Origin: Amphiscolops sp. MND2022
Taxonomy: Eukaryota
Reading direction: 5' to 3'
DNA length: 64,000 nucleotides
NCBI GenBank assembly: GCA_964187785.1
Contig: OZ076409.1
Coordinates: 39,930,001-39,994,000 of the forward strand
Shown here: positions 25,301-60,847 of the stretch, piece after piece
Layout of the letters: each line of letters begins with the position of its first letter
Position numbering within the stretch: position 1 is the first letter of the stretch
Notes under the pieces: generated by a model
The model's input: only the letters and a program-made list of their open reading frames with translations
Databases searched by the model: none
What the model was told of the DNA's origin: nothing
Made by a program: the position numbers and the translations under genes

Positions 25301-25577
25301 GGTCAAAGAGTAAATTTTGAAAAGTTTCTTAACGGCCGCAATTCGACCATTTTCCCTTCACTTTTTCTTCTTTTTCTGTATCAACATGCGAAGATGATTT
25401 ACAAGGAGTGCGTCTAACAAGCAGACCAGTCAAATAGCATAGAAACATTATGCGTACCGATGAACAGACTCGATTCCTATTGGTTGAAATTCCAGATTAG
25501 AACTAAATAATTGCGTCAGATTAGCAGTCAATAAAATTATTATTATAACGTAGTCAGCTATGTTCACATACCCCTAG

Positions 25578-28500
25578 TGTAAGATTTTTAGTTTTCCAGT
25601 AGCTTTAACTATTTGTTGAGAATAGCTCCACTACAACTCAATTAAACCCGTAGGTACCATGCACGAGACAAGGACTGGCTGAGTATCTACATAAATTTTT
25701 ATTAACTCCGAAGAAGAGACGAATCAACTTAATCGAAGGCGGTGGGGGTAAGTGTGACAAGGAAATCACGATCTTTACAACTTTGCTATTTTTCCCTCTT
25801 TCAGGGGTTTGTCTCGCTACTCTTAGGCTGTTAAAAATTATCTTTCCGCTGATGAAAAGAAGCAGGTTGAACTTTACTTACTATACATCAAATAAATAAG
25901 TCGAGTAATAGACACAAATACAATTTCACATCCACGAATAATAGAATGAATAATATGATAACATCGATAATAGCGGAGAATATTACTGAGTATTTTAGCA
26001 GTCATATTAGGAGGCATATAACACAAGAGAACAGTAAACAAGAATTTCAGCAAGGTTAAGTTTTTTTTGTATCCGTAAGGATGGGGGTGATATCGAAGAT
26101 ATCGGAAGAATCAACTCGCCGCAAAATCTCTATCGGTCTTGGAGTGAAAAACAATAATCCGTGTATTATCAGCCCACTTAGGCTTAAACCGTGTATTATC
26201 AGCCCACTTAGGCTCAACCGTGTATTATCAGCCCACTTAGGCTCAACCGTGTATTATCAGCCCACTTAGGCTTAAACCGTGTATTATCAGCCCACTTAGG
26301 CTCAACCGTGTATTATCAGCCCACTTAGGCTCAACCGTGTATTATCAGCCCACTCAGGCTCTTTTACATGTAATACGATAGACCAGCAGTCCACCCTACT
26401 CCCGGGTCGCAATCCGTACTAGCGAAAAGCGGGGTAGCAACAAATCAGGCAACTTCAGGTTGTTAGGCTGAAGGCACGGGCTAACCGGCCAGACGAAGTA
26501 AATCTGCAATTTCGATAGTCCGGCGTCTGATGCGGGATGCTATCGGACGCAAAACAGCAAACCGTTCTCTAGATTTCAACTCACTTTGTGTGTCGCAAAA
26601 ATGGCGCACACTTCGGCCCAAGTTACTTTCGGCAGTTTAGTCATATCATTATTCATAGTTCATCATCTTTCCTTTTTCGGGTTCTGACTAAGTGTTGAGC
26701 AATACAGTTTTTTCCTACTTCGGTACTGAAAGTTCATTAGAAGTACTTTTTCTCAGCACGAGTCGGTCCTAGTTCCACCTCCTTGTCAATCATGACTGAT
26801 GGTTTTACTTCGTTTTCAATAGAATTTAAGGGGTGGTGCTACTGACTCAGTGTTTCCCACTTTTGTAAGCACGACTTGAACTTCGGCTTACTGATTGACA
26901 TTTGCACTTTTTGCCAGGTCTCTTTTTCTCACGCGGTTCCTGACAACTCTCTTCAACTAAAAATGGCTGAAGGAAACAATTTTCTACAATTTACAATGAC
27001 CGAAAAGGCGATTTCAATTCATATCAAAAAAAGTCGTTTTTCGTGTTACAACTTCTAAGGGCAAAAACAAGGTGTTCCGATCACGGGAGGCAAAAACCAA
27101 GTACACCATTTGAAAGTAAAATTCAAGGGCTACAAAAGCTTACTCCATGGTTTTCTTTCTATTTCAACTCCTTCACAGTGAAAAACGCCTTTAAAGTTTG
27201 GAAGTCAAAAATCACCCATCGGTTTTCACGCAAATCTCAACTTTGGAGTGCTAGTACTCAGTCAATTTGAAAGATACAGGCTGGGGGCTTATATACATCG
27301 TTAGCCCAAGCCATGAGGAGTATTTTGCACTTTAGATGAGGTCTCTATCTTTTCTCAACAAAATTTGATAGTACTTTTTCTGAAAGTAGTCATTTTCCCG
27401 ATTTTTATGTCTGGACTTTCAACTTTGGAGGCCAATATCTCGAAACCAGGGCATTTTTCGGAAAAACGCTTCTTCTAAACGCTGTGCGCCTGGGTCTTGT
27501 GCGTCTACCCTGAAAGTTTCAGCTCGATATCGCCCAAAACGTGCGGGGGGGGTTAGCATTTTGGTAGGTCGACATCCCTATCGGCAGAGAGAAATCACCA
27601 CTTTAAATTCTTTGGGGTTCTTCGCTAGCGCACCGCAGCACTCTATTTATTATTCTATTCACTCCTCCACTTCAATTCTCAAGTACGCTGTGAAGGGGGC
27701 GGCTATTGTGCGCTTACACGTTGAGTACTAAGCGATAACATGCGAAAAACGGCTTTTTAGGCCATTTTAGGGCTGTTTTTAACGTTTGCTGGCTCAGTTC
27801 TCAAAAACTACTGAATATTATTTATTTTCCAATTAACACAAGTTAGGGCATCCATTTATCTTTAATTTAAGCCATATCCGAACATTTTCTGGCAACTGTA
27901 GCGATCACACGAAATTTTTAAAGGAAACTCAATTTTGGAAAATCGTCAAAATTTTATATGCACTTATTTTCAAAGCTTCCCCCCGATATGTTCCCGGGGT
28001 CGCACAACGCTCATACTCTCAACTTAAGCTTTCCTTTGGATGGGCTGTCGAATGCTGAAAACCGTTTGTTGATATCTTTTTCCAACTTCGAGAAATCGCG
28101 TTTTGATTTTTAGTTTGCATTAATAGAGGGGGTAATTCCAAAGTGTGCGGCGGCCGTTTTCTTATTAGCTACGCGTACAGCCACTCACAGCACGTTCTAA
28201 TTTTCATTCCTTTCGCTTTCTGCCACGCGTAGCTGAGTTGTATTCTATGCTGTTCACGCACACAGCGGAGTTTTCACTCTCGCCTACCCTCAAACACATG
28301 TATTAACATAGTAATTTGACTAAATTTCTATTCACAGTATTTTATGACTTCTAATGCTTTTTCTGTGGAAATTCGTTACTGAAAAGTTCCTAAATGTTTA
28401 CTCAACACGTAGTCAGGTCAGAAAGGAACATTTTGGTGGTTTAATTTTTCTTATATTCGCAATAGGTATCGAGAAAATCAATGTTAAAGTTTCGTTCCGA

Positions 28501-28771
28501 TTAGAATTTTCTTACATAGGTTTAGTTGGTGGCGGCCGTCTTATTGCATTAATACGTTGTGCGGCCGCTTCATAGCAGCTAAGAATGGTTATTTTGGTTG
28601 TCCGCGGAACTAGAGACGATATTATTGACATTAAATAATAGTGCGAGGTACTTGAAGTACTTAGTGTAATCTTTACTTTTATACGATATCACCCCGTAAA
28701 ATCTACCTTGCTGATGAACTAAAATTTAATAAACACCAAATCATGAGCGAAAAGTAAAAAAAAATCCTACA
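25578..28771 (-). repeat. 3' LTR (3194 bp)
   Basis: Near-identical to 36592-39701 and preceded on the minus strand by the PPT. Confidence 0.97.
26159..26361. repeat. 29/30-bp tandem repeat x7 within the LTR (x4 at ~37173-37287)
   Basis: Unit CCGTGTATTATCAGCCCACTTAGGCT(C/TA)AA with no spacers. Confidence 0.97.
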
Positions 28772-28782
28772 TTCCCCCCCAC
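28772..28782 (-). promoter_or_regulatory. Polypurine tract GTGGGGGGGAA
   Basis: Abuts the start of the 3' LTR on the minus strand. Confidence 0.9.
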
Positions 28783-30289
28783 TTGGACTACTACTCTCCT
28801 GAGTAGTTGGTTTATTTAAATTTTATTCTTTTAGTAGGGGCATTCTGATTCGTTAATTCGTAGTCCAGTCAGGTTGTAATGTAGCCTTGTTTCATCAACT
28901 TAATCTCTTTTATTTTGTAAACAAGTGCTTGAAATACAATGATATTAATATTAAAATCACTTTACACTCTTTTAACAATCCTCTTAATTAAATACAAATC
29001 TATTCTACCACTTAAATCACATTAATTTCATCAAAATTTTCCATTCTCTCACACAAATTGTATCTTTTTCAATCCAATATAAGATTTTGGGAGTGAAGTG
29101 TGGTAAATTTTGAAACAATCTCTTTTCTGTTATAACTAAGTTCTTTACTGACTGGATTTCTTAGTTCATTCTCCTAAGTTTTTATTATTTAATTATTTAC
29201 TTTTAATTTTCTGTCCAAGCAAGGAAAATATAGTTTTTGAGCTTTTCTTTGGGGGAAATAAATACAGGGAGGGATTTAACGGACGCAGATTTAATCTGGG
29301 TACAATTTATCATTGTGAAAAGGTTCGTCTCACGTGTAGGGTTCTGTACTCGCGCTGATAGGCTTCATTCACACCAAATTAACATTCGGATCATCTCGGG
29401 ACACATTGTCGTCTTGTTGCGGAGGTCGAAGCACACTTCTTTCTCCAGGATCAGCAAAGTTGTTGTTTGTTCTTTTGGCCGGCATATATAACATTCCAAA
29501 CAATATTAACACACCCAAAATTGTGATACATTACTGAAGAAGAATACTTTCACTTTTCTGAATAGTAGTCGAAGAGAAGCAGACTACTTCGCTGAATTTA
29601 CTTGAGGCAGGTTACAGAGTCAGTACAACGGAATAAACTTGCAATCCCCCTTAACAAATCTTTCGTGTCCGAAACTGGGTACGACTGGAACTCAAATATT
29701 TTCAGGAAGGGGGGATAGTCTCTTTTCTGGATCTTCTTCAGATAACATACGGAGACTTTGTAAGCGATACTGTTTTGACATGTCATTTCTGCGATTTCGT
29801 AGTTACGGAAGGTCATTCGCGCGAACCTAGGCGGACAATCCTCAACGCTGGTTCCAAGCAAGTTCTTACTTTTCACGCCGGTACCCGATTACGTCAACAC
29901 AAATACTACATTTACATTATCTTTCGACTATACTAGCGAGTCGAATTATTCAAGCATGGAAAAAAAAATTTTCCGACAACACGAAACACAGACACATAGA
30001 GCTTAAATACGGTAATAAATTTTTTTTGAAGTCATTCGAATTGATTGTAGGGGCGATTACTACAATTTTTCAATTCTAGTAACTGAGGTAATTAGGTTAA
30101 GGCAAAACTAAATGAAGGAGAGCCGGTAGCGACACGGATGACACTACTTTTCGAACTCATCACCTCATGATTGACAGTCCGAGCTTACAAGTAATTCGAT
30201 TAGTCATGCTCGCGAACGGCTAAACGAATGATGAGCTTCACTACTTCGGATGATTCAACTCACCTGACCATCACCCGAAGACATTAATG

Positions 30290-33200
30290 TTATTTTGGCT
30301 TTACCACGTACTCGTCTATGCCGAAGCGCACTGGCGGTCGACGATTCCGTGTCGTTTCTATCATCAGCGAATCTGGATGTTCGCTTTCGTTGTCCTCATC
30401 TGAAGAAGGCGGGGTATTTCTACTCTCGTTTATTTCTGCATAAACAGGAAATGAAGACTCCTCTGACGGTGCGGGGACGTCTATATACAACGGGCAATTA
30501 GTCAGAGTAGTCTCTTCGTCGTTTTCGGCGCTTATCACGCGGGGAACGTCATGAAATGACACGTGCGGCCGGTTTTTATTGGCTTGGATTTCCGCCGAAG
30601 TAGGGCGGAACACATGATACGGTCTATTTTCGGTTTTTTGATCGGATGAATCAGATTCATCCTCGATTTCTTCATAACTCGGTAGCGTCTTTGTCGCCAC
30701 TCGTTCGGATCGTTTCGGGAGGGATTCGCCAAAATACGGTTTAAGACGATTAAAATGGATATTCTGCCACTTTTCCGGGCAACCTGGCTTGCAAATCTGA
30801 TAGTTCACTTCACTTGTCTGACTCAATACTTCGTATGGACCGTGCCAAGGGAGATGGAACTTTCGGGATTTCGCTTTGTGTGGCTCGAATAACCACACTC
30901 GGTCTCCTGTTTTAAAACTTTTTCCATGGACCTTTTTCTGATAATAATCCTTCTGACGACGTTGTTCTTTCCCCATGGTCAGTTGCGCATGACTATGTAC
31001 TTCGAATAGTTTATCACTCAACTCGGCTCCTACCTCACCTAATTCTAAACGGGGGTCGCCAGGAGGTTTCGGATAGAATAAGTCGATCGGATATTGTGCT
31101 TCTCTCCCGTACAACATCGAAAACGGGGTCGTACCGAGGGTCTTATGTACGGTGGTATTGTACACAAAATTTACGTGGGGCAAGTAGAGATCCCACTCCT
31201 GCGGTTTTTCGGCGCAATACTTAGAAATAGTATCGGCAATCACTCTATTGAATCTTTCTACTTGACCATTTCCTTGGGGATGATACGGAGAAGTCCTAGT
31301 TTTATCGATCATGAAAACTTGGCAAATATCTTTCATTACTTCGCTGTTGAAGTTAGTTCCTTGATCCGTATGTAAAGTATCGGGAGCTCCAAATTTCAAA
31401 ATCCACTCTTCGACTAAAGTCGTGGCCACCGTCTTAGCCGTCATGTCTTTCAAAGGAACGGCAACCGCATACTTTGTATACAAATCGGATATAACTAAAA
31501 TGTATCGCGCCTGTGACTTTTTCGCTAGCGTTACGGGTCCCAAGATATCTGCTGCAACAATACGAAACGGCGCCTTTGCTTCGATTGTTTGCAAATGAGC
31601 TTTTCGACCTTTTCCCGCCGTTGATCTAGCCGCGCAACGCGTGCATTTTGCAATATACTTTTCTACACTTGACCTGAGACCAGGCCACCAAAATCTCTGT
31701 TTAATCCTTGATAACGTTTTCTCGGCTGCAAAATGACCTCCGCTCAGAGGGGAGTCATGTAACTGATATAACACTTCGGCTCTCATAGTCGAAGGAACGA
31801 CTGCCTGCCATATTTCACGTTCACGATTGCTAGGTTTCCATTTTCGATAAAGGACTCGATTGGCCAGCGCTAGCTGATCCCAATTACTCCAAAGTTCTAA
31901 CGCCTCTGGACAACTCCATTCTAATGCTACTTCTCTGGGGATGGGGTTGGGCCCTAAATCTTCCAATGTACCATCTATCCGAATTCCACGTCTAACCATT
32001 TCACGGAATAGTACTCCCGTACTACGATCCATTCTCTGACCATACGCTAGGTCGCTATCCGATCTAGTCCATGAGATATGCCCCCCCACTTGCTCTGATA
32101 CTAACATTTCTTCAGGGGTAACGACGGAACAGGCGGAATCTACACTTGATGAACGCGGGGTACCTCGTCTTGCCGAAGTCGAAGGGTACAATTGCTCTTG
32201 GTCTCTCGGTGTATACACGGAGATCGTAAAATACGAATCTTGAAACACAACCTCTAGACAAATAGCTACATTCACCCACTCTAATTCGTCATCGACGCAA
32301 CCTATTCTAGGCATTGCAAGTTTGGAAATTCCATGGGAGCTAGCATGTTCTTTCACTTTCAATAGACTTTCTTTTAGTACATCGTATTTAGCAACTTCTC
32401 CGTTACAATGCTTGGTGATCAATATGTACACATAACGTCCCTTTTCAACATCTTGGTACACTAGGAAACCTCCAACACGATTTACCGACTCTGCGAGAGG
32501 TGGTAGATACGAATACGTTTTCACGAACGATTTCATGGGAGCAGTGGCTACTCTCATGTCGGCAGATACACACAAAACTAAGGAATCGGGGGATTCGAAA
32601 AAATCCCCTTCTCGATAACGGACTACTTCTCTAGGTGGGTGAGAAATTTGCATTTTCAAATGTCGAGCTACATCCTCTGAGTTTTCCAATTTCTCACGAG
32701 CTTTGGTTCGGGCGGCTCGAAGATCGCGTTCGGCTTCAAACAAAGCACTATCAAATTCGGTGAATTCGGGAATCGGTCCTCTTAACGCATCTTCTTCGCC
32801 GGGCAGCCATTGGGGTACGTCATTCGGTCGTCGACTAAGACCGTCCGCATTACAATGTTTATCCCCTGGACCATGTACTATTTGATAGTCATACTCCTGA
32901 AGTTTCTGAACCATTCGAAAAGTCATTCCATCCGCATTTTGCCTAAACAACCATTGAAGACTTGCATGATCTGTGCGAATAATACATTTGGATCCGTAAA
33001 TGTACGGTCTGAACCACTGGACGGCTTGAACTACACCTAGCGCTTCTCTTTTGGCTGTTGCATAATTTACCTCCGTTTTAGTTAGAACTCGCGACTCAAA
33101 GGCAATTGGATACTCTATCCCATCGATCACTTGAGACAAAACTGCGCCGAGCGCCGTATCACTAGCATCGGTATCAATAATGAACGGAAGTTCAAAATTT

Positions 33201-35116
33201 GGAAATGCCAAAATTGGAGCTTCTAACAATCTTTTCTTCAGCGTTCGGAACGCTTTGTCATGTTCTTCGGTCCATGTGAATTTTAATCCTTTGCTCGTCA
33301 ACAGATAAAGGGGCCTAGCCACTTCCGCGAAGTTTTGGACAAACTTCCGATAATAGTTGCAGAAGGCAACAAATGAGCGAACTCCGGTGACGTCGGTCGG
33401 AGGCTCCCATTCGCGTACTGCCGCTAACTTTTTCGGATCCGGTTGGATCCCTTCCTTGTTAATCACATGACCTAGATAGTGGACCTCGGTGCGGAATAAG
33501 TTGCATTTCTTCGGTTTAAGACGTAAACCGGCTTTGCGCAAAACTATAAACACCTTTTCTAAATGCTCCAAATGTTCTTCTGGAGTTTTGCTAAACGTTA
33601 GCACATCATCTAGGAATATGAGCACATGTTTATACAGATCTTCTTTAAAAATGTCGTTCATGTTCCTTTGGAAAGTTGGCGGGGCGTTCGTTAAGCCAAA
33701 CGGCATCTTCAAACACTCATATAACCCTCCATCCGGAGTACAAAATGCCGTTTTGTGCCGGTCTTCGGCCGCGACTGGAATCTGCCAATAGCCACTTGCT
33801 AAATCGAGAGACGAGAAGACTCCCGCCCCTTGCAGTGCATCAATCGTTTGACCGATCCGGGGCAACGGATACGCGTCCTTTACGGTAAGGTCGTTCAACT
33901 TTCGGTAATCTATACACATTCGGTTTGAGCCATCTTTCTTAGGTACCATTACTATGGGACTACTGAAAGGACTTTTACTCGGTACGATCACTCCTTTCTC
34001 AAGCATCTCGCGAATTTCTTCACGAACGGCTTCTAATTTATGCGGAGCAATTTTGTAGGGCGAAATTTTGAACGGTTTCGCATCGCCTATGTCTATGCGG
34101 TGTTCTACTCCTACAGCGGTTCCTAACGGGTCTGAAGGCAGTGAAAACACATCTCTGTAATCACGAATCAAATCTCGCAATTTTTCCTTTATTTCGGCGT
34201 TCTCGAGTCCAGGGGTGGCTAAATTTAAAATTTCGTCCACTTCCTGTTCGAGTTTTTCGTTTATTTCGGAGGCCGCTGATACTGTGTCAGGACCGGGTAC
34301 CGTTTCGCAAACAAATGCGTCATCTTCCGGCGGGGGAACATGACCGCTTAGGACTTGCATGGGTACTTTGATGATGAAACCATCATCTTTGGGGATCGTT
34401 AGTTTCTGTTCGACTAAGTCAGTCGAGCATTGATTTTCCATCATGAACTTTAAGCCAATCATGATCTCAGGGTAGAGATCTTCTACAACCACGAATTCAT
34501 CGGAAGCAACGCACGTTCCGATTTTAACTTGTGCTTTTACGATACCTTTGGTAGGCATCTCGTTGGCTATTGGGCCTGTTAAACGACTGGGATTGGGAGC
34601 TATTGGATTACCAATAGTCTTAGCCAATTCCAAACTCATCAAACTTCTACTGGCACCAGTGTCTATCATGGCCCAACAGCGTAGGCTTTCGACTTCATAG
34701 GGAATTAAAAGCGTGGCCCCTGGAATGTATTGATTATGGGTAAGTTTTCTCGATTTTACCTCATCAGACCGGGCCTGATTTGGAAATTCGGGCTCTTTCT
34801 TGGACAAAATTTTCACAGAGCCAGGCTCAGCTTGGTTATCCTCAAAAAGATTTTGTATTGGGGGACTATTTACAACAAGGGTATGGGATTCTTTTGGAAA
34901 AAAGCCTCCCGGGCCAAACTCGTCACACATTTGTTTCCAAGTTTCGGGGTCGATCCGCCTACTGCGATTGCGCTGTCGCAAACGGCTATCATTACTCCTA
35001 GACCTAGAACGAACACGCTGACTTGTTTGCGGAAAATTTGTAGCAGCTGGAGATGGGATGGAATCCCAAGCGCGAGTAGAGCCTGCTACTGCATACTCGG
35101 CTGTCGGTAGTTTAAA
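30290..35116 (-). CDS. pol: Pol polyprotein (protease, RT, RNase H, TARG1/OARD1-like macrodomain, integrase with GPY motif), in the -1 frame relative to gag
   Basis: IDTGAS, FLDD, DTDASD..ADGLSR, macrodomain at ~32207-32630, HHCC, DILGP/DQG/VERFN, WHGPY. The frame is open from the slippery site to the stop. Confidence 0.97.
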   Translation of the reverse strand, partial: FKLPTAEYAVAGSTRAWDSIPSPAATNFPQTSQRVRSRSRSNDSRLRQRNRSRRIDPETWKQMCDEFGPGGFFPKESHTLVVNSPPIQNLFEDNQAEPGSVKILSKKEPEFPNQARSDEVKSRKLTHNQYIPGATLLIPYEVESLRCWAMIDTGASRSLMSLELAKTIGNPIAPNPSRLTGPIANEMPTKGIVKAQVKIGTCVASDEFVVVEDLYPEIMIGLKFMMENQCSTDLVEQKLTIPKDDGFIIKVPMQVLSGHVPPPEDDAFVCETVPGPDTVSAASEINEKLEQEVDEILNLATPGLENAEIKEKLRDLIRDYRDVFSLPSDPLGTAVGVEHRIDIGDAKPFKISPYKIAPHKLEAVREEIREMLEKGVIVPSKSPFSSPIVMVPKKDGSNRMCIDYRKLNDLTVKDAYPLPRIGQTIDALQGAGVFSSLDLASGYWQIPVAAEDRHKTAFCTPDGGLYECLKMPFGLTNAPPTFQRNMNDIFKEDLYKHVLIFLDDVLTFSKTPEEHLEHLEKVFIVLRKAGLRLKPKKCNLFRTEVHYLGHVINKEGIQPDPKKLAAVREWEPPTDVTGVRSFVAFCNYYRKFVQNFAEVARPLYLLTSKGLKFTWTEEHDKAFRTLKKRLLEAPILAFPNFELPFIIDTDASDTALGAVLSQVIDGIEYPIAFESRVLTKTEVNYATAKREALGVVQAVQWFRPYIYGSKCIIRTDHASLQWLFRQNADGMTFRMVQKLQEYDYQIVHGPGDKHCNADGLSRRPNDVPQWLPGEEDALRGPIPEFTEFDSALFEAERDLRAARTKAREKLENSEDVARHLKMQISHPPREVVRYREGDFFESPDSLVLCVSADMRVATAPMKSFVKTYSYLPPLAESVNRVGGFLVYQDVEKGRYVYILITKHCNGEVAKYDVLKESLLKVKEHASSHGISKLAMPRIGCVDDELEWVNVAICLEVVFQDSYFTISVYTPRDQEQLYPSTSARRGTPRSSSVDSACSVVTPEEMLVSEQVGGHISWTRSDSDLAYGQRMDRSTGVLFREMVRRGIRIDGTLEDLGPNPIPREVALEWSCPEALELWSNWDQLALANRVLYRKWKPSNREREIWQAVVPSTMRAEVLYQLHDSPLSGGHFAAEKTLSRIKQRFWWPGLRSSVEKYIAKCTRCAARSTAGKGRKAHLQTIEAKAPFRIVAADILGPVTLAKKSQARYILVISDLYTKYAVAVPLKDMTAKTVATTLVEEWILKFGAPDTLHTDQGTNFNSEVMKDICQVFMIDKTRTSPYHPQGNGQVERFNRVIADTISKYCAEKPQEWDLYLPHVNFVYNTTVHKTLGTTPFSMLYGREAQYPIDLFYPKPPGDPRLELGEVGAELSDKLFEVHSHAQLTMGKEQRRQKDYYQKKVHGKSFKTGDRVWLFEPHKAKSRKFHLPWHGPYEVLSQTSEVNYQICKPGCPEKWQNIHFNRLKPYFGESLPKRSERVATKTLPSYEEIEDESDSSDQKTENRPYHVFRPTSAEIQANKNRPHVSFHDVPRVISAENDEETTLTNCPLYIDVPAPSEESSFPVYAEINESRNTPPSSDEDNESEHPDSLMIETTRNRRPPVRFGIDEYVVKPK
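35070..35116 (-). promoter_or_regulatory. -1 ribosomal frameshift signal (U UUA AAC plus downstream stem)
   Basis: Heptamer at 35110-35116 is in the correct gag phase. The -1 frame is open into pol. Downstream CGAGTA...TACTCG can pair. Confidence 0.85.
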
Positions 35117-36480
35117 GAATTAGACTGCGGAAGACTTGGACATTGCTTAGCGTAGTGACCTATCGCCTTACAATTAAAACATTCCGCTTCTTCGGGGGGA
35201 GGGTGCGAAACATTTAGCTGACCCGACGATCCTGCCCTATTTAGAGGCGCGCGATAGTTAGGATTGAGAGGGGCTTGAAAACGGGGAGCTTGCCAACTCT
35301 GAGGCTGCCCACCAACCGGCCTTTGCGAACTTCCTAACGCTCCTACGATCGCAGATGACATGTCTTTCATACCCTGCACTAGGATTTCGTTTTGTCTGGT
35401 CATCATTTCGACTTGTTTCGAGGAACTTTGTTCTAAGTTTTTCGTTATTTGATCGGTTTGCTTGGATATCTGCTGGCAGATGGAATTTTCGAATCGATCA
35501 AAGCGACTTGCCACATTGGTTAAAGATGTTTGAAGGGCGGCAAATTTTTCTTCGATTTGGTTGTTACTCGAATAGCCAGCTCTCACTAGATCGGGATCCT
35601 CATATTCGTCATACGAATAGCGCAATTTATCAAGTTTCCGCTCTCTTTTTGATTCATGAGTCTTGTGGATTATTTCGAGTTCCTGTGCTCGTTGCAAAGT
35701 TTCCCCGAAATCACGGTCACGCTCGTCTTCATACAGACTAAGTTGTATTCGCGAATCAAAAAGCCCTTCAATAAATTGATCTCTCATATCGCGTTCTCTT
35801 TCCCGGAGCGATTTTTCAGGAAAGGCTATATCAGCGAGTTGACGTACTCTTCTCGAGTAGTCTCTAAGGTCTTCATTTTCCCACTGTTTAGCTGCTTTAA
35901 ATTCCGACCGCGTAGCTCGCTGGCTGCGATATTGCTGCATTTTGGGTTTCAAAATTTCAAGTAGTTCATCAAAACGTGGGGGATAAGAACCGGGTTCTTT
36001 TTCAATATATCTTTTGGGGACAGTTTCAAATTCTTCAATAGCCCAAGATGTTAAACAAGTAGGTATTGCAGCAATTTTTTGACTATCATTCCACCCATTG
36101 GCTTTGGCAACTGCTTTGAAGTGTTTTACCCAATTTTCCCAGCGGTTGTAATCTTTGCTGGGGAACTTTTCTGGTTTTATTGGCGATTTTTCGTACAGGG
36201 GTTTTTGTCTTTTTCTAGATTCATTTTCAAGGACCATGGAGTCGTCAGAATCTAGGTCTGCTTCAATTTTGAATCTTTTAACTTCTTTTTCCATTTCTTT
36301 CAATCGCCGATAAGCATCTCTTTTACACTCCTTTTCCGCGTCGGCCAATCCTACGAAGGAAATTTTAGTGGACTTACTGAGGAGTGGCTTACTACCACCT
36401 GTGACGGGAGTATGGGTGCCGTTGGGATCTTCTTGGGTGACGGGGGAGATCTGCTGATCGTTGTCGTCGTCTCCAGACAT
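35086..36480 (-). CDS. gag: Gag (464 aa) with CCHC zinc knuckle
   Basis: Capsid-like region (W..HF..VA.AN.W, DQFIEGL) and CFNCKAIGHYAKQC; lies between the PBS and pol. Confidence 0.95.
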   Translation of the reverse strand: MSGDDDNDQQISPVTQEDPNGTHTPVTGGSKPLLSKSTKISFVGLADAEKECKRDAYRRLKEMEKEVKRFKIEADLDSDDSMVLENESRKRQKPLYEKSPIKPEKFPSKDYNRWENWVKHFKAVAKANGWNDSQKIAAIPTCLTSWAIEEFETVPKRYIEKEPGSYPPRFDELLEILKPKMQQYRSQRATRSEFKAAKQWENEDLRDYSRRVRQLADIAFPEKSLRERERDMRDQFIEGLFDSRIQLSLYEDERDRDFGETLQRAQELEIIHKTHESKRERKLDKLRYSYDEYEDPDLVRAGYSSNNQIEEKFAALQTSLTNVASRFDRFENSICQQISKQTDQITKNLEQSSSKQVEMMTRQNEILVQGMKDMSSAIVGALGSSQRPVGGQPQSWQAPRFQAPLNPNYRAPLNRAGSSGQLNVSHPPPEEAECFNCKAIGHYAKQCPSLPQSNSLNYRQPSMQ

Positions 36481-36572
36481 CGTTGAAAGGGTTCAGCAAC
36501 TCACAAGGGGTGAAGGGAAGGCAAGGGAAAGAAGTAAGCAAAGAAAGAGGAAATAACAAAGACGCAAAGAAA

Positions 36573-36590
36573 GCCCACCCAGGAGCGCCA
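36573..36590 (-). promoter_or_regulatory. Primer-binding site TGGCGCTCCTGGGTGGGC, tRNA-Asn-like
   Basis: Begins one base after the 5' LTR. Its complement GCCCACCCAGGAGCGCCA resembles the 3' end of metazoan tRNA-Asn(GUU). Confidence 0.8.
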
Positions 36591-36591
36591 A

Positions 36592-39500
36592 TGTAAGATT
36601 TTTAGTTTTCCAGTAGCTTTAACTATTTGTTGAGAATAGCTCCACTACAACTCAATTAAACCCGTAGGTACCATGCACGAGACAAGGACTGGCTGAGTAT
36701 CTACATAAATTTTTATTAACTCCGAAGAAGAGACGAATCAACTTAATCGAAGGCGGTGGGGGTAAGTGTGACAAGGAAATCACGATCTTTACAACTTTGC
36801 TATTTTTCCCTCTTTCAGGGGTTTGTCTCGCTACTCTTAGGCTGTTAAAAATTATCTTTCCGCTGATGAAAAGAAGCAGGTTGAACTTTAATTACTATAC
36901 ATCAAATAAATAAGTCGAGTAATAGACACAAATACAATTTCACATCCACGAATAATAGAATGAATAATATGATAACATCGATAATAGCGGAGAATATTAC
37001 TGAGTATTTTAGCAGGCATATTAGGAGGCATATAACACAAGAGAACAGTAAACAAGAATTTCAGCAAGGTTAAGTTTTTTTTGTATCCGTAAGGATGGGG
37101 GTGATATCGAAGATATCGGAAGAATCAACTCGCCGCAAAATCTCTATCGGTCTTGGAGTGAAAAACAATAATCCGTGTATTATCAGCCCACTTAGGCTTA
37201 AACCGTGTATTATCAGCCCACTTAGGCTCAACCGTGTATTATCAGCCCACTTAGGCTCAACAGTGTATTATCAGCCCACTCAGGCTCTTTTACATGTAAT
37301 ACGATAGACCAGCAGTCCACCCTACTCCCGGGTCGAAATCCGTACTAGCGAAAAGCGGGGTAGCAACAAATCAGGCAACTTCAGGTTGTTAGGCTGAAGG
37401 CACGGGCTAACCGGCCAGACGAAGTAAATCTGCAATTTCGATAGTCCGGCGTCTGATGCGGGATGCTATCGGACGCAAAGCAGCAAACCGTTCTCTAGAT
37501 TTCAACTCACTTTGTGTGTCGCAAAAATGGCGCACACTTCGGCCCAAGTTACTTTTTCGGCAGTTTAGTCATATCATTATTCATAGTTCATCATCTTTCC
37601 TTTTTCGGGTTCTGACTAAGTGTTGAGCAATACAGTTTTTTCCTACTTCGGTACTGAAAGTTCATTAGAAGTACTTTTTCTCAGCACGAGTCGGTCCTAG
37701 TTCCACCTCCTTGTCAATCATGACTGATGGTTTTACTTCGTTTTCAATAGAATTTAAGGGGTGGTGCTACTGACTCAGTGTTTCCCACTTTTGTAAGCAC
37801 GACTTGAACTTCGGCATACTGATTGACATTTGCACTATTTGCCAGGTCTCTTTTTCTCACGCGGTTCCTGACAACTCTCTTCAACTAAAAATGGCTGAAG
37901 GAAACAATTTTCTACAATTTACAATGACCGAAAAGGCGATTTCAATTCATATCAAAAAAAGTCGATTTTCGTGTTACAACTTCTAAGGGCAAAAACAAGG
38001 TGTTCCGATCACGGGTAGCAAAAACCAAGTACACCATTCAAAAGTACAATTCAAGGGCTACAAAAGCTTACTCCATGGTTTTCTTTCTATTTCAACTCCT
38101 TCACAGTGAAAAACGCCTTTAAAGTTTGGAAGTCAAAAATCACCCATCGGTTTTCACGCAAATCTCAACTTTGGAGTGCTAGTACTCAGTCAATTTGAAA
38201 GATACAGGCTGGGGGCTTATATACATCGTTAGCCCAAGCCATGAGGAGTATTTTGCACTTTAGATGAGGTCTCTATCTTTTCTCAACAAAATTTGATAGT
38301 ACTTTTTCTGAAAGTAGTCATTTTCCCGGTTTTTATGTCTGGACTTTCAACTTTGGAGGTCAATATCTCGAAACCAGGGCATTGTTCGGAAAAACGCTTC
38401 TGCTAAACGCTGTGCGCCTGGGTCTTGTGCGTCTACCCTGAAAGTTTCAGCTCGATATTGCCCAAAACGTGCGGGGGGGGGGTTAGCATTTTGGTAGGTC
38501 GACATGCCTATCGGCAGAGAGAAATCACCACTTTAAATTCTTTGGGGTTCTTCGCTAGCGCACCGCAGCACTCTATTTATTATTCTATTCACTCCTCCAC
38601 TTCAATTCTCAAGTACGCTGTGAAGGGGGCGGCTATTGTGCGCTTACACGTTGAGTACTAAGCGATAACATGCGAAAAACGGCTTTTTAGGCCATTTTAG
38701 GGCTGTTTTTAACGTTTGCTGGCTCAGTTCTCAAAAACTACTGAATATTATTTATTTTCCAATTAACACAAGTTAGGGCATCCATTTATCTTTAATTTAA
38801 GCCATATCCGAACATTTTCTGGCAACTGTAGCGATCACACGAAATTTTTAAAGGAAACTCAATTTTGGAAAATCGTCAAAATTTTATATGCACTTATTTT
38901 CAAAGCTTCCCCCCGATATGTTCCCGGGGTCGCACAACGCTCATACTCTCAACTTAAGCTTTCCTTTGGATGGGCTGTCGAATGCTGAAAACCGTTTGTT
39001 GATATCTTTTTCCAACTTCGAGAAATCGCGTTTTGATTTTTAGTTTGCATTAATAGAGGGGGTAATTCCAAAGTGTGCGGCGGCCGTTTTCTTATTAGCT
39101 ACGCGTACAGCCACTCACAGCACGTTCTAATTTTCATTCCTTTCGCTTTCTGCCACGCGTAGCTGAGTTGTATTCTATGCTGTTCACGCACACAGCGGAG
39201 TTTTCACTCTCGCCTACCCTCAAACACATGTATTAACATAGTAATTTGACTAAATTTCTATTCACAGTATTTTATGACTTCTAATGCTTTTTCTGTGGAA
39301 ATTCGTTACTGAAAAGTTCCTAAATGTTTACTCAACACGTAGTCAGGTCAGAAAGGAACATTTTGGTGGTTTAATTTTTCTTATATTCGCAATAGGTATC
39401 GAGAAAATCAATGTTAAAGTTTCGTTCCGATTAGAATTTTCTTACATAGGTTTAGGTGGTGGCGGCCGTCTTACTGCATTAATACGTTGTGCGGCCGCTT

Positions 39501-39701
39501 CATAGCAGCTAAGAATGGTTATTTTGGTTGTCCGCGGAACTAGAGACGATATTATTGACATTAAATAATAGTGCGAGGTACTTGAAGTACTTAGTGTAAT
39601 CTTTACTTTTATACGATATCACCCCGTAAAATCTACCTTGCTGATGAACTAAAATTTAATAAACACCAAATCATGAGCGAAAAGTAAAAAAAAATCCTAC
39701 A
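36592..39701 (-). repeat. 5' LTR (3110 bp)
   Basis: Near-identical to 25578-28771. Confidence 0.97.
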
Positions 39702-40369
39702 CCTAGTGCCCTAAATGCAGGAGCGAAGCGAAGCGGAGCGACGTGCCATATGGCCATGCTTCAATGTTGCTACTTGGCGAAGAGAGCGAAGCGACCGAGC
39801 CATACAACAAATATGCTAACCTCTTCAAATAAATCAAGTTTCACATATTGGCTGTAACAGCACTCCTTTCATTGATTTGTGATTCTAAATTCCGATTGGT
39901 CAAACAATGAAGTTTTGATTAAATTGTCTGCTTTTTGAGTAGTCTGCTTATTAAACGGTCTGCTTGTTAGACTACTTCCGATTTACAAGCAGTCCAAAAG
40001 GAGCGAGCCTTTTGTAAAGAGTGGCCCTTCTGATGGAGAATGGATTTTCTAGAACCTTGTAACCTGATCGAGTGATCAAATCTTCGACAACTTTTCAAAG
40101 TTCATAGTATAACATTCTCGTCTTCATCATTTTAGTTTCTACAAACTTCACAGAAACCCATTTAGTCTCGCTTTCACTAGACTTACGTAGAACGAATTCC
40201 TGGAGAACCGCAAATACCTATTTTTGGGAGGATTTGTTGGGTGCAGGGAGAAAAAGAGAGGTCATAAGCAACCTTCAGCTAGGTAGCCCAAATGCTTAGA
40301 TTCAACAAACTTTGAAAGCTAACATGGAGTTTGATTTTTGTGATGATATATAGTATTTTTCAAAAGTGT

Positions 40370-42611
40370 TGTCACGACCCGCTCCCGGTCGTAATTTCTA
40401 TTGCTGCAGCGGAATACCAGGCTTTGGAAGAGGCCGAGGACAAGGCCGAGGTAAACTTTACTAAACTAATTTAATCTTAAACTAATCTAAAATTCTACTT
40501 ACAGTACAGCTAAATTGATTGCAGATATTTTTCCGAATACAGAATCTAACGTAAGCGTTACGGAATATTTTCAGAAATGACTCTAAACAAGCTAAAACTT
40601 CCGGTCTAATGTTTTCACACGCAACGCCGTTTTATTTCCGGTCTCATCTTCTGAATTTTCCATTTCGATCTAAATACTAAATAATCTTGTAAATGGGATC
40701 ATTTCTTCTGCTCCACACTGAAATGAAAACATTCAAAACAATATTCAACTCCGAGATCCCAACGGAGTCCATACAATCTAAAATGAAAGAACATACAGAA
40801 ATATGGTGGAAATGTATTCCAATATTAAAGTAGTTGTTAAATATCCACTTAATACCGCATCCAAGTGGTTTTAAGTAAATGTTTACAACGTTATGACAGC
40901 GTCACTCAACTAGGTTGGTAACGAGCGTTTCTATTTTTACGGACCAATAGCGTCGCTTGTTGACAGAATTATTTGTGCCGGTACTAGTTAGATTAAGCTT
41001 GGTTGCTAATAGCAACGCTTACTAGCTAAGAGAAAAGAATAGAACCGCCTACGCTTTCCGTTTCCACTCCGCTTGCTACTGCTGCTCAGCCAAGAGCAAT
41101 CTCAATGCGTACGGAACACTTACGGAACGGATTGTAAAATTGTATTCTGCTGCTCAGCTATAGGTAATCTTAATACGTAGCATCTACGGAGCGGATTGTA
41201 AAATCACAAATGAGAAATACTGCTTCAAACGAAATCCAAACGAAGCTTTTTAAATCGATGCTTTTGGAAGATTTAAGAGTTATGGTTTTTACACAAGGGA
41301 AACTGTACTGTAGGGAAGAATGATAGAAAATTGCAATGATGATTTTTACGTTCTGGTTTTTATGTTTTATACTATCATCATGATAAATCACTAAAAACAC
41401 GTTGACATTACGCCTTACTCAGTTCCTCATTAAGGGAACAAATCTACTCGATTTACTACAGCATTTAAAATATCTTAATGATAATCCTAATATGGGACGT
41501 AAGGTCAACGTCAATTCATCGGTTTCAAGTCAATAGTGATAGTAACATTTCTATGATAATGACAATCGAGCTAGTGACCAGACTTCGATCATGTTTTGAT
41601 AAATTTCATGATTATTGTGCAAAGTGTTGAAGTTGCTTTCCATTTATTATGAATATGTTGCGCTCATCTTTGTTGCATTACGTTAAAGTCCCGTTTGGGC
41701 TTAGTTTTGTGTTTGATGTAAATGATATAGCATACCATTAGTAGGTAATTCATATGTTTGAATTTGGGATTATAATTTCAGCATCGTTTGTTCCTTTATA
41801 CCAAATTTCTACGTTTTTCCTCCGCTTCCAAGTTGATTCAATCCGTCGCGATTACGTCGCCATTTTCGAGTGTCATTCTTTTGCTTCGAAATTTAACTTC
41901 CCAAGTTGAGAATTGACTAATTGTTCATGCCGGCGTGCCTACGCTGATGGAAATGCAAGCTAGACTTTTGTTTTACCGCAATTTTGAGACTCAAACAGGA
42001 AGTGAGATTGCATGAACAAAAATGATTTCAACAAATTTTACGGAACGCTGACGTAACTAGGAATTTTGATGCCTGTTTTTACGACGCGGGACTGAAATGA
42101 TATGAATCATTAGCGCTTTTTGTTGAACAAACCCAATTTTTGTGATACCTAGGAATTTTTGGGTGAGGAACAAATGATGCTGAGAAAGTATAAATATGTA
42201 ATACATACATGTAAACACACAGTTTTTGAATTGCCTTGTAACAATTAGTTCTGTTCCGTTACTATAACGTATCTAAAGATCTTTGAAGATTTCAACCTTT
42301 CCAAAGATACTTTCTCTCTCTCTCTCTCAATTAAAATGACAACTAGAAGCCAGAAAAGGAAAGCGGTAGCCGAGTTGGTCTCTGGTGATTTCGAAACCTC
42401 TGTAACCGAAAATTTTCCGCCTGAAGCTCTTGTAGCTAGTTCCAGCAAAATCCCTAGGATAGAATCTGAGGACTTAACTGAGATAAAAACGTCACTAAGA
42501 AAAGAAATTATGTCTGATCTGACTAAAATACTTGCAGAAAATCAAAAGGAAATGCTCAAGCTGATAGCACCTTTAAACAAAAAACAGACTGTCCATATGA
42601 ATACTCAAGAC
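40370..42611 (+). repeat. 5' LTR, truncated ~100 bp before its end
   Basis: Matches 46207-48448 up to CAAGAC, then diverges. Confidence 0.93.
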
Positions 42612-44800: not shown

Positions 44801-45395
44801 GGCCAAAGGGACAATAGCGATTACCAACGGAATCTAAAAAGGAAAAAGAAATCAACAAGATAGAAATCACGCCGAGTAAAAGTTGACACCCTAAAAGAAA
44901 TCATTAACGTCATCCCTACGTAGTTGGAAAAATCATCTAATCTTCAACTTCAGTGAAAGCCTATTATGGCAGTGACGGGAGAAAACGTTCCAAAAAGAAT
45001 ACAGATGAATAAAAGATTCATCAAGAAGCTCTGAAGGAAAGATATTATTTTGAAAATTACGGAATATGAACGTAGAATATTCGAGAAAAAATCAATGACG
45101 TCATTACGCCATCAAACGGAAAGAAGAAGAAAGATAAAATTAGAAGCTTTTCTGTGAAGTTTCAACCAATCACTGCGCAGATGAAAGAATTTCCTTTTCC
45201 GAACTCGGGACGCACCGGAACGAAAACGGAAAAACCGACCAATAGAATTTCGATAAAAATCACGAAGGAAAGAACTTTAAACGGTCATTTGTCGTCCAAT
45301 TCACATAAAAGCTTGACCAGCACATTTTTCTTAACGCACAATCTTTGCCAACAAGAAAAATTCTTGAAATAAACCTATCTGAAATTTTCAACAAA

Positions 45396-54996: not shown

Positions 54997-55196
54997 NNNN
55001 NNNNNNNNNNNNNNNNNNNNNNNNNNNNNNNNNNNNNNNNNNNNNNNNNNNNNNNNNNNNNNNNNNNNNNNNNNNNNNNNNNNNNNNNNNNNNNNNNNNN
55101 NNNNNNNNNNNNNNNNNNNNNNNNNNNNNNNNNNNNNNNNNNNNNNNNNNNNNNNNNNNNNNNNNNNNNNNNNNNNNNNNNNNNNNNNNNNNNNNN
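54997..55196. other. Assembly gap (200 N)
   Basis: Run of N. The flanks correspond to positions ~185 bp apart in the homologous intact LTR. Confidence 0.99.
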
Positions 55197-58100: not shown

Positions 58101-60847
58101 TAGCTTCTCAACTTTTTCGTGCTATTGATTTGGCTGCGCAATGCTTACATTTTACAATAAACGTTTCGACGCTTGGCTTGAGCCCAGGCCACCGGAACCT
58201 CTGTTTAATCCGTGACAAGGTTTTCTCTATCGCAAAATGACCTCCGCTAAGGTGAGAATCGTGTACCTGGCACAACGATTGTTGGTACAACACTTCGGAT
58301 AGCATAATCGCCGGTACTACAACCTGCCATATTTCGATCACGATTGCTGGGGTTACATATTCGATAAAGGACACGATTTGCCAATGCAAGATATTCCCAA
58401 TAACTCCAGAGCTCGAGCGCTTCTGGAGAACTACATCCGAACACGACTTCGCCGAAGATGGGATTAGGTCCTAAATCTTCTATCGTACCGTCTATTCGAA
58501 TTCTATGCCGTAACATTTCGCGAAGCATGATTCCCATGCCTCGATCCATTCGTTGGTCATATGCATAAATGACTGTGTGATCTAGTTCACGGGATATGCC
58601 CCCTCACTTGCTCGGTTACTAGCATTTGCTCTGGAGTGGCGACGGAATATACGGAATCTTTATCTGCGGAAGCCGACGTACTACGTCTTGAGGAAGCGGA
58701 CGGGTACAGTTGTACCTGATCTCTATGAGTATACAGAGAAATTGTAGAATAGGACTCTCGGAAAACTGCTTCAAGACAAATAGCTATGTTCACCCACTCC
58801 AATTCATCATCAACGCAACATATCCTAGGTATCGCAAGTTTTGAAATTCTACGTTAACTAGCATGTTTTTCATTCTCAGTAAACATTCTTTCAACAAATC
58901 GTGCTTAGCTACTACATCTTTTGTATAATTCCTGATGAGTACATACAAGTAACGTCCGGGTTTCTCTTCTCTACACACTAGAAATTCTCCACCGCGATGT
59001 ACCGACTAAGGGATAGGAGGTGAATGCGGATACGATCTAACGAATGAATGCATGGGAGTAGTAGTCAATCTCATGTGTGCGGCAACACACAAATCGAATG
59101 AATCAGGCGGTTGAAGAAATCCATTCCTGGATAGCGGACTGCTTCTCTTGGGTATGCGAGATTTGAATTCTTAAATGCCATGTTATGTCATCTGACGATT
59201 CGTTTCTCCCTCGAGTTTTAGTTCGGGCGGACTGAAAGACACCTTCGGCTTCAAACAAAGCACTATCGAATTTGGTAAATTCGGGGATTGGTCCTCTCAA
59301 TGCTTCCTCTTCGCCTGGAAGCCATTGCGGTACGTCATTTGATCTCCGATTATGACCACCCGCATTACAACGCTTGTCACCGGATCGATGCACTTATTGG
59401 ACAACTTTTTCTTCAGCGTTAGGAACGGTTGGTCATGTTCTTCGGTCCAAGTGAATTTGAAACCTTTGCTCGTCAACAAGTGAAGTGACCGAGCTTTTTC
59501 TGCAAAATTCGGGACAAATTTCCGATAAAAGTTGCAGAAGGAAACAAATGAGCGAACTCCCGTGACGTCTACTGTTCATTCTCATTCGCGTACTGCCGTG
59601 ACCTAGGTAGTGTACGTCAGTGCGAAACAACTTACATTTTTTCGGCTTAAGGCGTAAGCCGGCTTTGCGTAGTACGCCAAACACTTTTTCCAAATGCTCC
59701 AAATGTTCTTCAGGCGCTTTACCAAACGTTAGCACATCATCTAGGTAGATCAACACATGTCTATAGAGGTCGTCTTTCAATATGTTGTTCTTATTTCGTT
59801 GAAACGTCGTCTGAGAGCATTCATTCACCCAAACGGCATCTTCAGACCTTCATATAAACCTCCACCGGGAGTACAGAAAGCTGTTTTATGCCGATCTTCG
59901 TCTACGACTAGGATCGGCCAATAACTGCTGGCTAAATCAAAGGACGAGAAGACGCCTGCCCCCTGCAGTGAATCGTTTGGCCTATTCGTGGTAACGGATA
60001 CGCATTTTTCACCGTGAGGTCGTTCAACCAACTGTAGTCAATAAACTTTCGGTTAGAGCCGTCTTTCTCAGGCACCATGACATCGAGTCTGCTGAAACGA
60101 CTCTTACTCAGCACGATCACTCGCTTATCAAGCATCTCCTGAATTTCTTCTCGAATCGCTTCGAGTTTAAGCGGAGCATTTTCACAGGGCTTTATTTGGA
60201 ACGGTTTTGCATCGCCTATATCAATTTGATGTTCTACACCTACCACACGGTTTCCAGGGGGTCCGAAGGCAAGGAGAACACAACTTTAAAATTACCGATT
60301 AGAACACGTAATTTTTCCTTTATTCCGGTGTTCTCGATACCAGGAGTGGTTTAATTCAAAAATTCTTCTACGTGACGCTCGAGTTTTTGGTTAATATCGG
60401 AGGTCGATGACACTGTGTCAGGACCAGGTACCGTTTTAAAGACAAGAGCGTCATCTTCCGGAGGAAGAAAAGGCCCGCCTAAGATTGGGATCCGTACCTT
60501 GACGATTGAGCCACCATCATGAATTTCACTCATACCAGACTTTCAGATCCTCTACTACGACGAATTTGTCGCTCTGGTGTCTATAACTGTCCATTATCGA
60601 CCGTTTTCTACTTCGTATGGAATTGAAAGCGTTGCTCCTGGAACGTACTTGCTATGTGCAATATATTTCGGTTTATTTTCGTCCAGCAACGCCTGATTCG
60701 GAACTTCTGCATCGTTTTTGGAACGAATTTTACAGAGCCAGCTTTTGCTTGTGTATCTTCAAAGATATTTTGTTCAGGGGGGCGATTTACAAAAGGGGGG
60801 ATTGGGTTCCCTTGTGTAAAATCCTACGGGACCAAATTCTTCGCACA

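What the first reader, a model, noticed from the sequence alone, without database searches (positions are those of the whole stretch)
32207..32630. TARG1/OARD1-like macrodomain fused between RNase H and integrase in an intact Gypsy Pol, with remodelled ligand loops
Seen: YREGDFFESPDSLVLCVSADMR...GRYVYILITK...YDVLKESL...GISKLAMPRIGCVDDELEWVNV...VF...ISVY lies in frame in Pol. Knowledge: this follows the motif order of the TARG1/OARD1/Poa1p/DarG-type ADP-ribosyl hydrolases (GDLF..DSLAHCIS.D..MGAGIA..RYIYYLITK..MPRIGCGLD.L.W), which remove ADP-ribose from protein acidic residues and from DNA thymidine. Macro-type inserts have been noted in some other retroelements, so the fusion itself may not be new. 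Here the catalytic Lys (ITK) and Asp are kept, but MGAGIA has become VATAPM and GCGLD has become GCVDD. The older copy shares CVDDELEW (~58795-58820), so this is a family trait rather than decay. Inference: a counter-defence against host ADP-ribosylation, or a domain repurposed for another ligand or for integration targeting.
Basis: partly seen in the sequence, partly recalled or inferred. Interest (0 to 1): 0.75.

Follow-up and report, generated by a model that had tools for sequence, protein, structure and literature searches.

The report
Pocket-blocked TARG1 domain in Gypsy Pol
A young, high-copy jumping-gene family carries, inside its main enzyme polyprotein, a copy of the ADP-ribose-removing enzyme TARG1 whose binding pocket has been rebuilt, so it is likely no longer an enzyme, yet natural selection keeps it about as well conserved as the intact copies carried by other jumping genes in the same genome.

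Summary
A TARG1/OARD1-fold domain (32207-32632, minus strand) lies in frame between RNase H and integrase in the unbroken Pol of a young Gypsy element. Evidence: OARD1 match E 1.5e-20, Foldseek TM 0.89, LTRs 99.3% identical, at least 150 genomic copies.

The fusion itself is common. Other families in this genome carry intact TARG1 domains at four positions, and this scan reported the fusion before on other DNA.

The pocket is what differs. G43, I44 and G123 (human numbering), whose mutation abolishes ADP-ribose binding and catalysis in TARG1, are replaced in all six subfamilies of this clade. G43 is kept in 137 of 137 and G123 in 142 of 143 ordinary homologues. An acidic residue is fixed in the phosphate loop. 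Lys84 is Arg in one subfamily with unbroken Pol frames.

The domain is not decaying: shared-variant pN/pS is 0.11, and 30 of 30 copies picked by RNase H carry it. The sister family lacks it altogether.

Best reading: a selectively kept pseudo-enzyme with a structural or binding role (0.55). Rivals are a new ligand (0.2) or a working ADP-ribose eraser (0.15). No activity was tested.

The parts
32207..32632 (-). TARG1/OARD1-fold macrodomain, Pol residues 830-971, with remodelled ADP-ribose pocket
32534..32551 (-). Loop 1, VATAPM in place of MGAGIA (G43 to A, I44 to P, human numbering)
32411..32425 (-). ILITK; last residue equals catalytic Lys84 of TARG1, kept in this copy
32276..32314 (-). Loop 2, MPRIGCVDDELEW (G123 to V, L124 to D, D125 kept)
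30290..35119 (-). pol open frame, 1609 aa without a stop: protease, RT, RNase H, macrodomain, integrase
34430..34702 (-). Aspartic protease
33461..33946 (-). Reverse transcriptase core (RVT_1)
32840..33274 (-). RNase H
30737..31798 (-). Integrase (H2C2 finger, rve core, p58 C-terminal domain)
35086..36492 (-). gag open frame, 468 aa, with a CCHC knuckle; overlaps pol in another frame
36592..39701 (-). 5' LTR (TG...CA), 3110 nt
   Evidence: 3085 matches, 21 mismatches, gaps of 2, 2 and 88 nt against the 3' LTR
36574..36590 (-). Primer-binding-site-like 17-mer next to the 5' LTR, identical in the sister family without the domain and in the Gag-protease-macro elements
28772..28780 (-). Polypurine tract
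25578..28771 (-). 3' LTR, 3194 nt; 5-bp target-site duplication CCTAG at 25573-25577 and 39702-39706
58728..59128 (-). Broken macrodomain of an older, diverged copy (about 53240-62477), with stops and a frameshift; CVDDELEW at 58794-58817

Best explanation
The domain is a TARG1-fold module fixed in the Pol polyprotein of one Gypsy clade; it has likely lost ADP-ribose binding and hydrolysis, and is probably kept as a folded pseudo-enzyme with a structural or protein-binding role between RNase H and integrase. Shown: the fold, the in-frame position, replacement of the pocket glycines in every subfamily, purifying selection, and retention in copies. Inferred: an ancestor carried an active TARG1 domain, as other families in the genome still appear to. 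Bulky side chains at G43, I44 and G123 plus a fixed acidic residue at position 124 would close the diphosphate channel. Selection now acts on the fold and on a new set of invariant residues. The binding partner is unknown.
For: Human TARG1 G43E, I44E and G123E lose ADP-ribose binding and catalysis (PMC5928194, passages; its supplementary figure S1 was not seen). G43 is Gly in 137 of 137 and G123 in 142 of 143 aligned ordinary homologous stretches, and both are Gly in 30 of 30 intact-type genome loci. In the 6 remodelled subfamilies G43 is A/A/L/A/E/S, I44 is P/P/P/P/A/P, G123 is V/V/I/V/V/V, L124 is D in 6 of 6, H32 is L/I/F, the GDLF Asp is D/D/E/H/I/N, and Lys84 is Arg in one. K84A inactivates TARG1 (PMC8501950, passages). 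Not decay: pN 0.10-0.12 against pS 0.74-0.79 between subfamilies A and B. In 47 copies, variants shared by at least 3 copies are 30 synonymous and 11 non-synonymous, pN/pS 0.11, p 1e-11 against neutrality. Constraint is weaker than on RT+RH+IN (75 and 3, p 4e-4) and equal to the flanking linkers (23 and 8, p 1.0), as expected of a structural module. 54 of 142 positions are invariant in the 6 subfamilies, many not shared with ordinary TARG1. Net charge has dropped (median -1 against +4/+5), which argues against the basic-patch RNA binding of TARG1. The sister family has no such domain and has open Pol frames. A single-copy host-like TARG1 gene with an intact pocket exists.
Against: No binding or activity was measured. 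The published mutants are Gly/Ile to Glu; Ala, Pro and Val are milder, and a co-evolved pocket might still take a ligand. Lys84 is kept in 5 of 6 subfamilies, Asp125 in 6 of 6 and Asp37 in 5 of 6, though 38% of all positions are invariant, so this is not remarkable by itself. The domain is as conserved relative to RT (61% at RT 86%) as an intact-pocket domain (60% at RT 87%), so the rate does not separate dead from active. The 47 copies were picked by their score to this domain, which biases its variant counts downward. The six subfamilies are related, so the charge test is not on independent points. Pocket geometry in the model could not be inspected.
Confidence: 0.55

Rival explanations
1. 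The pocket was rebuilt for another ligand or adduct (another nucleotide metabolite, a modified nucleic-acid end, or a host peptide), and Lys84/Asp125 would still do chemistry or binding there.
For: The new loop forms are fixed: M-R-V invariant before loop 1, Pro at I44 in 5 of 6, DD-x-LEW-x-N-x-A-x-C in loop 2. The stem branch of the domain is long (1.01 changes per site, support 100) and is followed by ordinary conservation. Lys84 and Asp125 are mostly kept.
Against: Lys84 is Arg in subfamily C and the adenine-side Asp is free to vary. Constraint equals that of the linkers. No candidate ligand can be named from the data.
Confidence: 0.2
2. It is still an ADP-ribosyl hydrolase that strips host ADP-ribose marks from element proteins, RNA or cDNA (counter-defence).
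For: TARG1 fold with Lys84, Thr83, Ser35, Asp37 and Asp125 in this copy. Other retroelement families carry intact TARG1 domains at several positions, which suggests selection for the activity. [quoted passage not shown]
Against: All three tested pocket residues are replaced, against near-total conservation of G43 and G123 elsewhere. An acidic residue sits in the phosphate loop. One subfamily with open frames has Arg at Lys84. The sister family does without the domain.
Confidence: 0.15
3. The domain stays attached to integrase and tethers it to chromatin, steering insertion as chromodomains do in chromoviruses.
For: It lies directly upstream of integrase. Chromodomain tethering in Gypsy elements is known (bioRxiv 2021.11.30.470311, passage).
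Against: Likeness to the sister family's pre-integrase segment resumes only after the domain (Pol residue 990), so it may stay with RT-RNase H or be cut free. This is inference; the protease sites were not determined. Insertion sites were not analysed.
Confidence: 0.07
4. A dead passenger drifting neutrally inside an open reading frame.
For: The pocket is lost, and the sister family lacks the whole segment.
Against: pN/pS 0.11 among shared variants. pN 0.10-0.12 at saturated pS. Present in 30 of 30 copies picked by RNase H, 29 of them over the full length.
Confidence: 0.03

Closest known systems
Human TARG1 / OARD1 / C6orf130 (PDB 4J5Q, 4J5R, 4J5S, 2L8R)
   Same: Fold (TM 0.89), 35% identity, motif order, Lys84 and Asp125 in this copy
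   Different: G43, I44, G123, L124 and H32 are replaced; neutral rather than basic; embedded in a retroelement Pol
DarG macrodomain (5M31, 5M3E) and yeast Poa1p (6LFQ, 6LFR)
   Same: Same structural class (Foldseek E 5e-8 to 8e-7, TM about 0.8)
   Different: 16-18% identity; stand-alone enzymes that bind ADP-ribose
Intact TARG1-type domains in other Gypsy-type Pol proteins (L094, L098, L107, L099, L100; P0112, P0144, P0071, P0122, P0127)
   Same: Same domain in a retroelement polyprotein; L094, L098, L107, P0112 and P0144 have it at the same RNase H-integrase position
   Different: They keep G43, G123, K84 and D125 (15 of 15 rows). Whether the remodelled domain shares one insertion with L094/L098/L107 is unresolved (AU p 0.61)
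Macro-domain open reading frames of fish epsilon-like endogenous retroviruses
   Same: Macro domain captured by an LTR retroelement (PMC4977317, passage citing Basta et al. 2009)
   Different: Described there as additional open reading frames; subclass and activity not given in the passage read
Inactive viral macrodomains
   Same: Recurrent loss of macrodomain activity in viruses (PMC10221186, start of abstract and passages); most viral TARG1-like homologues lack some essential residues (PMC4245714, passage)
   Different: Those losses are described as catalytic-residue changes that may keep binding; here the binding loops are changed and the catalytic pair is mostly kept

Membership tests
TARG1/OARD1 (Poa1p-like) macrodomain, as a fold family | Sequence homology to TARG1 over the whole domain | tested here: met
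   E 1.5e-20, residues 4-141
TARG1/OARD1 (Poa1p-like) macrodomain, as a fold family | Macro fold closest to TARG1 | tested here: met
   repeated without ordinary TARG1 rows in the alignment
Active TARG1-type ADP-ribosyl hydrolase | Catalytic Lys84 | tested here: inconclusive
   Lys in this copy and in 5 of 6 subfamilies, Arg in subfamily C; role from PMC8501950
Active TARG1-type ADP-ribosyl hydrolase | Asp125 (catalytic role recalled, not from a call) | tested here: met
   Asp in 6 of 6 subfamilies
Active TARG1-type ADP-ribosyl hydrolase | Pocket residues G43, I44, G123 needed for ADP-ribose binding | tested here: not met
   All replaced in 6 of 6 subfamilies; requirement from PMC5928194
Active TARG1-type ADP-ribosyl hydrolase | GDLF Asp and His32 (roles recalled) | tested here: not met
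   Asp in 2 of 6 subfamilies (kept in this copy), His in 0 of 6; ordinary homologues 121 of 133 and 125 of 137
Active TARG1-type ADP-ribosyl hydrolase | Measured ADP-ribose binding and hydrolysis | not testable with these tools
   Needs biochemistry
Ty3/Gypsy LTR retrotransposon | LTRs with TG...CA ends, target-site duplication, primer site and polypurine tract | tested here: met
Ty3/Gypsy LTR retrotransposon | gag, then pol in the order protease-RT-RNase H-integrase | tested here: met
Envelope-bearing Gypsy element | Third, env-like open frame | tested here: not met
   No match to relatives' third frame anywhere in the window. Subfamilies B and C and the sister family carry one; it is env-like by likeness to L098's frame, which has a weak Baculo_F hit below cut-off

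The most novel reading that the evidence does not exclude
A Gypsy clade took an ADP-ribose eraser, rebuilt both phosphate loops in one burst, and has since kept the new pocket, with its Lys/Asp pair, for a ligand or nucleic-acid adduct that no macrodomain is known to handle. It lives in a genome where TARG1 domains are traded among many retroelement families, and even kept by non-autonomous Gag-protease-TARG1 elements whose autonomous partner lacks one. That would point to an undescribed ADP-ribose-based host defence against retroelements, with a second-generation answer to it.
Probability: 0.15. Interest if true: 0.8.

Novelty: new variant of a known kind. Interest (0 to 1): 0.45.

Why it matters
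Retroelements repeatedly capture TARG1-type erasers, which hints that hosts ADP-ribosylate retroelement proteins or nucleic acids. This genome offers a natural comparison set: intact domains at four positions, a pocket-remodelled clade under purifying selection, a sister family without the domain, and non-autonomous elements that keep only Gag, protease and an intact domain. Assaying the isolated intact and remodelled domains side by side would test directly whether the eraser activity is what elements select for, and what a macrodomain is still good for once its pocket is gone. If the domain is only a folded spacer, the finding is a modest pseudo-enzyme case.

Tried and rejected
Complementation idea: I asked whether the non-autonomous Gag-protease-macro elements (same primer site) supply an intact domain to this family. 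Rejected as a specific partnership. Their LTRs are 91% identical to another autonomous family (L139/L144/L146; Gag 52-53%) and share only about 30 nt around the primer site with this element.

Origin of the domain: a tree of 140 columns cannot tell one shared insertion with L094/L098/L107 (AU p 0.61) or descent from the host-like gene (AU p 0.49) from an independent capture; long branches meet. The first bootstrap tree of the domain timed out and a quick search replaced it.

dS is saturated between subfamilies, so pN and pS are given and no dN/dS value is relied on. The macrodomain figures for the older copy include out-of-frame read-through and were ignored.

No verdict is available on whether the domain contacts RT-RNase H or integrase. 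No RNA holder was listed for 31500-33500; this is no evidence on expression. The ESM Atlas only repeated the Macro assignment.

Literature: ten full-text searches (most judged from listings) showed no paper describing a TARG1-type domain in Gypsy Pol. The library lacks most subscription journals and repeat-database entries, so this is weak. The original TARG1 structure paper was not held. The chromatin-evolution preprint passages had nothing on TARG1 fusions. A words search of earlier scan notes for a pseudo-enzyme version found nothing, and a sequence search found nothing.

Full report
Observation. They form residues 830-971 of a 1609-aa Pol frame without stops. Pfam places protease, RT and RNase H before them and integrase after. 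The domain matches human OARD1/TARG1 at E 1.5e-20 over its whole length, and nothing else in PDB passes E 0.1. AlphaFold with a 57-row alignment gives pLDDT 92.9, and Foldseek ranks TARG1 first (TM 0.89), then DarG and Poa1p. That alignment held many ordinary TARG1 rows, so I folded it again from 18 remodelled rows only: pLDDT 69, the same core elements, and TARG1 again first. Foldseek scores include sequence, so this is not wholly independent.

The element. It spans 25578-39701 with 3.1-3.2-kb LTRs (3085 matches, 21 mismatches), TG...CA ends, a 5-bp target duplication, a primer site and a polypurine tract. It is young. The window's subfamily (A) has no env-like frame. Subfamilies B (about 80% in the domain) and C (about 60%) have one. 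Three more subfamilies (D, E, F; 57-69%) come from unnamed public assemblies. An older broken copy lies at about 53240-62477.

The fusion is not unusual. Of the 150 hits I scanned 60 of the longer ones with Pfam. Five are Gypsy-type Pols with the domain between RNase H and integrase or after integrase, and two more join it to an RT or a protease. In this genome, 20 fetched loci show intact-type domains in four settings: RNase H-integrase, protease-RT, after integrase, and in Gag-protease-macro elements without RT. Earlier notes of this scan report the same fusion on other DNA (unchecked AI notes, not used as support). In print I found macro domains mentioned for fish endogenous retroviruses (PMC4977317, passage) and degenerate TARG1-like proteins in viruses (PMC4245714, passage). 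Ten searches showed no paper on TARG1 in Gypsy Pol, which is weak given the library's limits.

What is special is the pocket. In human TARG1, changing G43, I44 or G123 to Glu abolishes ADP-ribose binding and catalysis (PMC5928194, passages), and K84A abolishes rescue from DarT (PMC8501950, passages). Among the ordinary homologous stretches (the query and 13 remodelled fragments set apart), G43 is kept in 137 of 137, G123 in 142 of 143, K84 in 143 of 144 and D125 in 139 of 143. All 30 intact-type genome loci keep G43, K84, G123 and D125. In the six remodelled subfamilies G43 is A, A, L, A, E, S; I44 is mostly P; G123 is V or I; L124 is always D; His32 is always replaced; and the GDLF Asp survives in two of six. 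K84 is kept in five and is Arg in subfamily C; D125 is kept in all. That bulky and acidic side chains close the channel is inference from the published mutants; I could not inspect the model's pocket.

It is not decaying. Between subfamilies A and B the domain has pN 0.10-0.12 at pS 0.74-0.79 (saturated), like protease and above RT, RNase H and integrase (0.03-0.06). In 47 copies of A, variants shared by three or more copies are 30 synonymous and 11 non-synonymous (pN/pS 0.11, p 1e-11). That is looser than the enzyme cores (p 4e-4) and the same as the linkers (p 1.0). These copies were chosen by their score to the domain, which biases the count. Chosen by RNase H instead, 30 of 30 copies carry the domain: 29 over its full length (one of these with a 5-residue deletion in loop 1) and one truncated. 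Relative to RT it is as conserved as an intact domain (61% at RT 86%, against 60% at RT 87%). 54 of 142 positions are invariant across the six subfamilies, many of them new. TARG1 also binds RNA through basic surface patches, independently of the pocket (PMC5928194, section 10). The remodelled domains, however, are near neutral (median net charge -1 against +4 to +5; six related rows), so that fallback is weakened too.

History. On RT+RNase H+integrase the six subfamilies form a clade (100). Its sister (100) is a family with the same primer site that lacks about 190 residues including the domain. The domain tree shows a long stem (1.01) for the remodelled clade, but cannot decide between one insertion shared with L094/L098/L107 and later lost in the sister, or a separate capture (AU p 0.61). 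Either way close relatives have open Pol frames without it, and the host appears to have its own intact gene.

Mechanism. Most likely (0.55) the domain is a pseudo-enzyme: captured active, then fixed with a closed pocket, and kept because its fold and new surface serve the polyprotein or bind a partner. A rebuilt pocket for another ligand (0.2) fits the fixed new loops and the kept Lys/Asp. A working eraser (0.15) needs a pocket geometry not seen among the ordinary homologues examined. Integration targeting (0.07) has no direct support. Neutral decay (0.03) is largely excluded. Fold, position, substitutions, selection and distribution are shown; loss of binding and any present function are inferred. 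Contact with RT or integrase remains untested.

Verdict. It is a member of the TARG1 fold family but fails the pocket test for an active TARG1 hydrolase. It is a new variant of a known kind: a clade-wide, selectively kept, pocket-remodelled TARG1 domain in Gypsy Pol. Interest 0.45. The non-autonomous Gag-protease-TARG1 elements found on the way deserve their own look.

Noticed in passing
L095:3019-5520, L096, L097, L102, L103, L105, L109 (G000): Young non-autonomous LTR elements (LTR pairs 96-99.7% identical) that encode only Gag, protease and an intact-pocket TARG1 domain, with no RT or integrase; about 100 copies by Gag search. Their LTRs are 91% identical to an autonomous env-bearing family whose Pol has no macrodomain; their domain groups with that of L094/L098/L107. 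Possibly more interesting than the finding itself.
   Followed up: partly
L139:2402-6661, L144, L146: Sister family (bootstrap 100) of the remodelled clade, with open Pol frames that lack about 190 residues including the whole macrodomain.
   Followed up: yes
L094, L098, L107; L099, L101, L106; L100: Other families in the same genome carry intact TARG1 domains between RNase H and integrase, between protease and RT, and after integrase; L100 also has a weak dUTPase hit.
   Followed up: partly
L104:4757-5701 (G000:C1:46433556-46434500): Single-copy, uninterrupted 315-aa host-like frame: an unassigned N-terminal half plus an intact TARG1 domain (E 1.5e-41 to OARD1).
   Followed up: partly
P0127: A Gypsy-type Pol from elsewhere with a TARG1 domain followed by a weak Tpt1/KptA RNA 2'-phosphotransferase match (E 3e-6) after integrase.
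   Followed up: no
window 28772-30289; L091:7598-9877: The window's subfamily lacks the env-like third frame that subfamilies B and C carry, and is by far the most numerous in the searches.
   Followed up: partly
window 26159-26363 and 37173-37289: The LTRs contain a 29-30-nt tandem repeat array that is longer in the 3' LTR; the two LTRs differ by an 88-nt gap.
   Followed up: no
window 40370-42618 and 46207-48455: A second young element with 2249-nt direct repeats (99.9% identical); its internal frames (43041-44572, 45309-46301) have no Pfam match.
   Followed up: no
window 16038-17048; 12891-13586; 477-2082; 51883-52593: FLYWCH-finger frame (likely a DNA transposon), an RT fragment, a decayed Gypsy fragment, and a 172-174-nt tandem repeat.
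   Followed up: no
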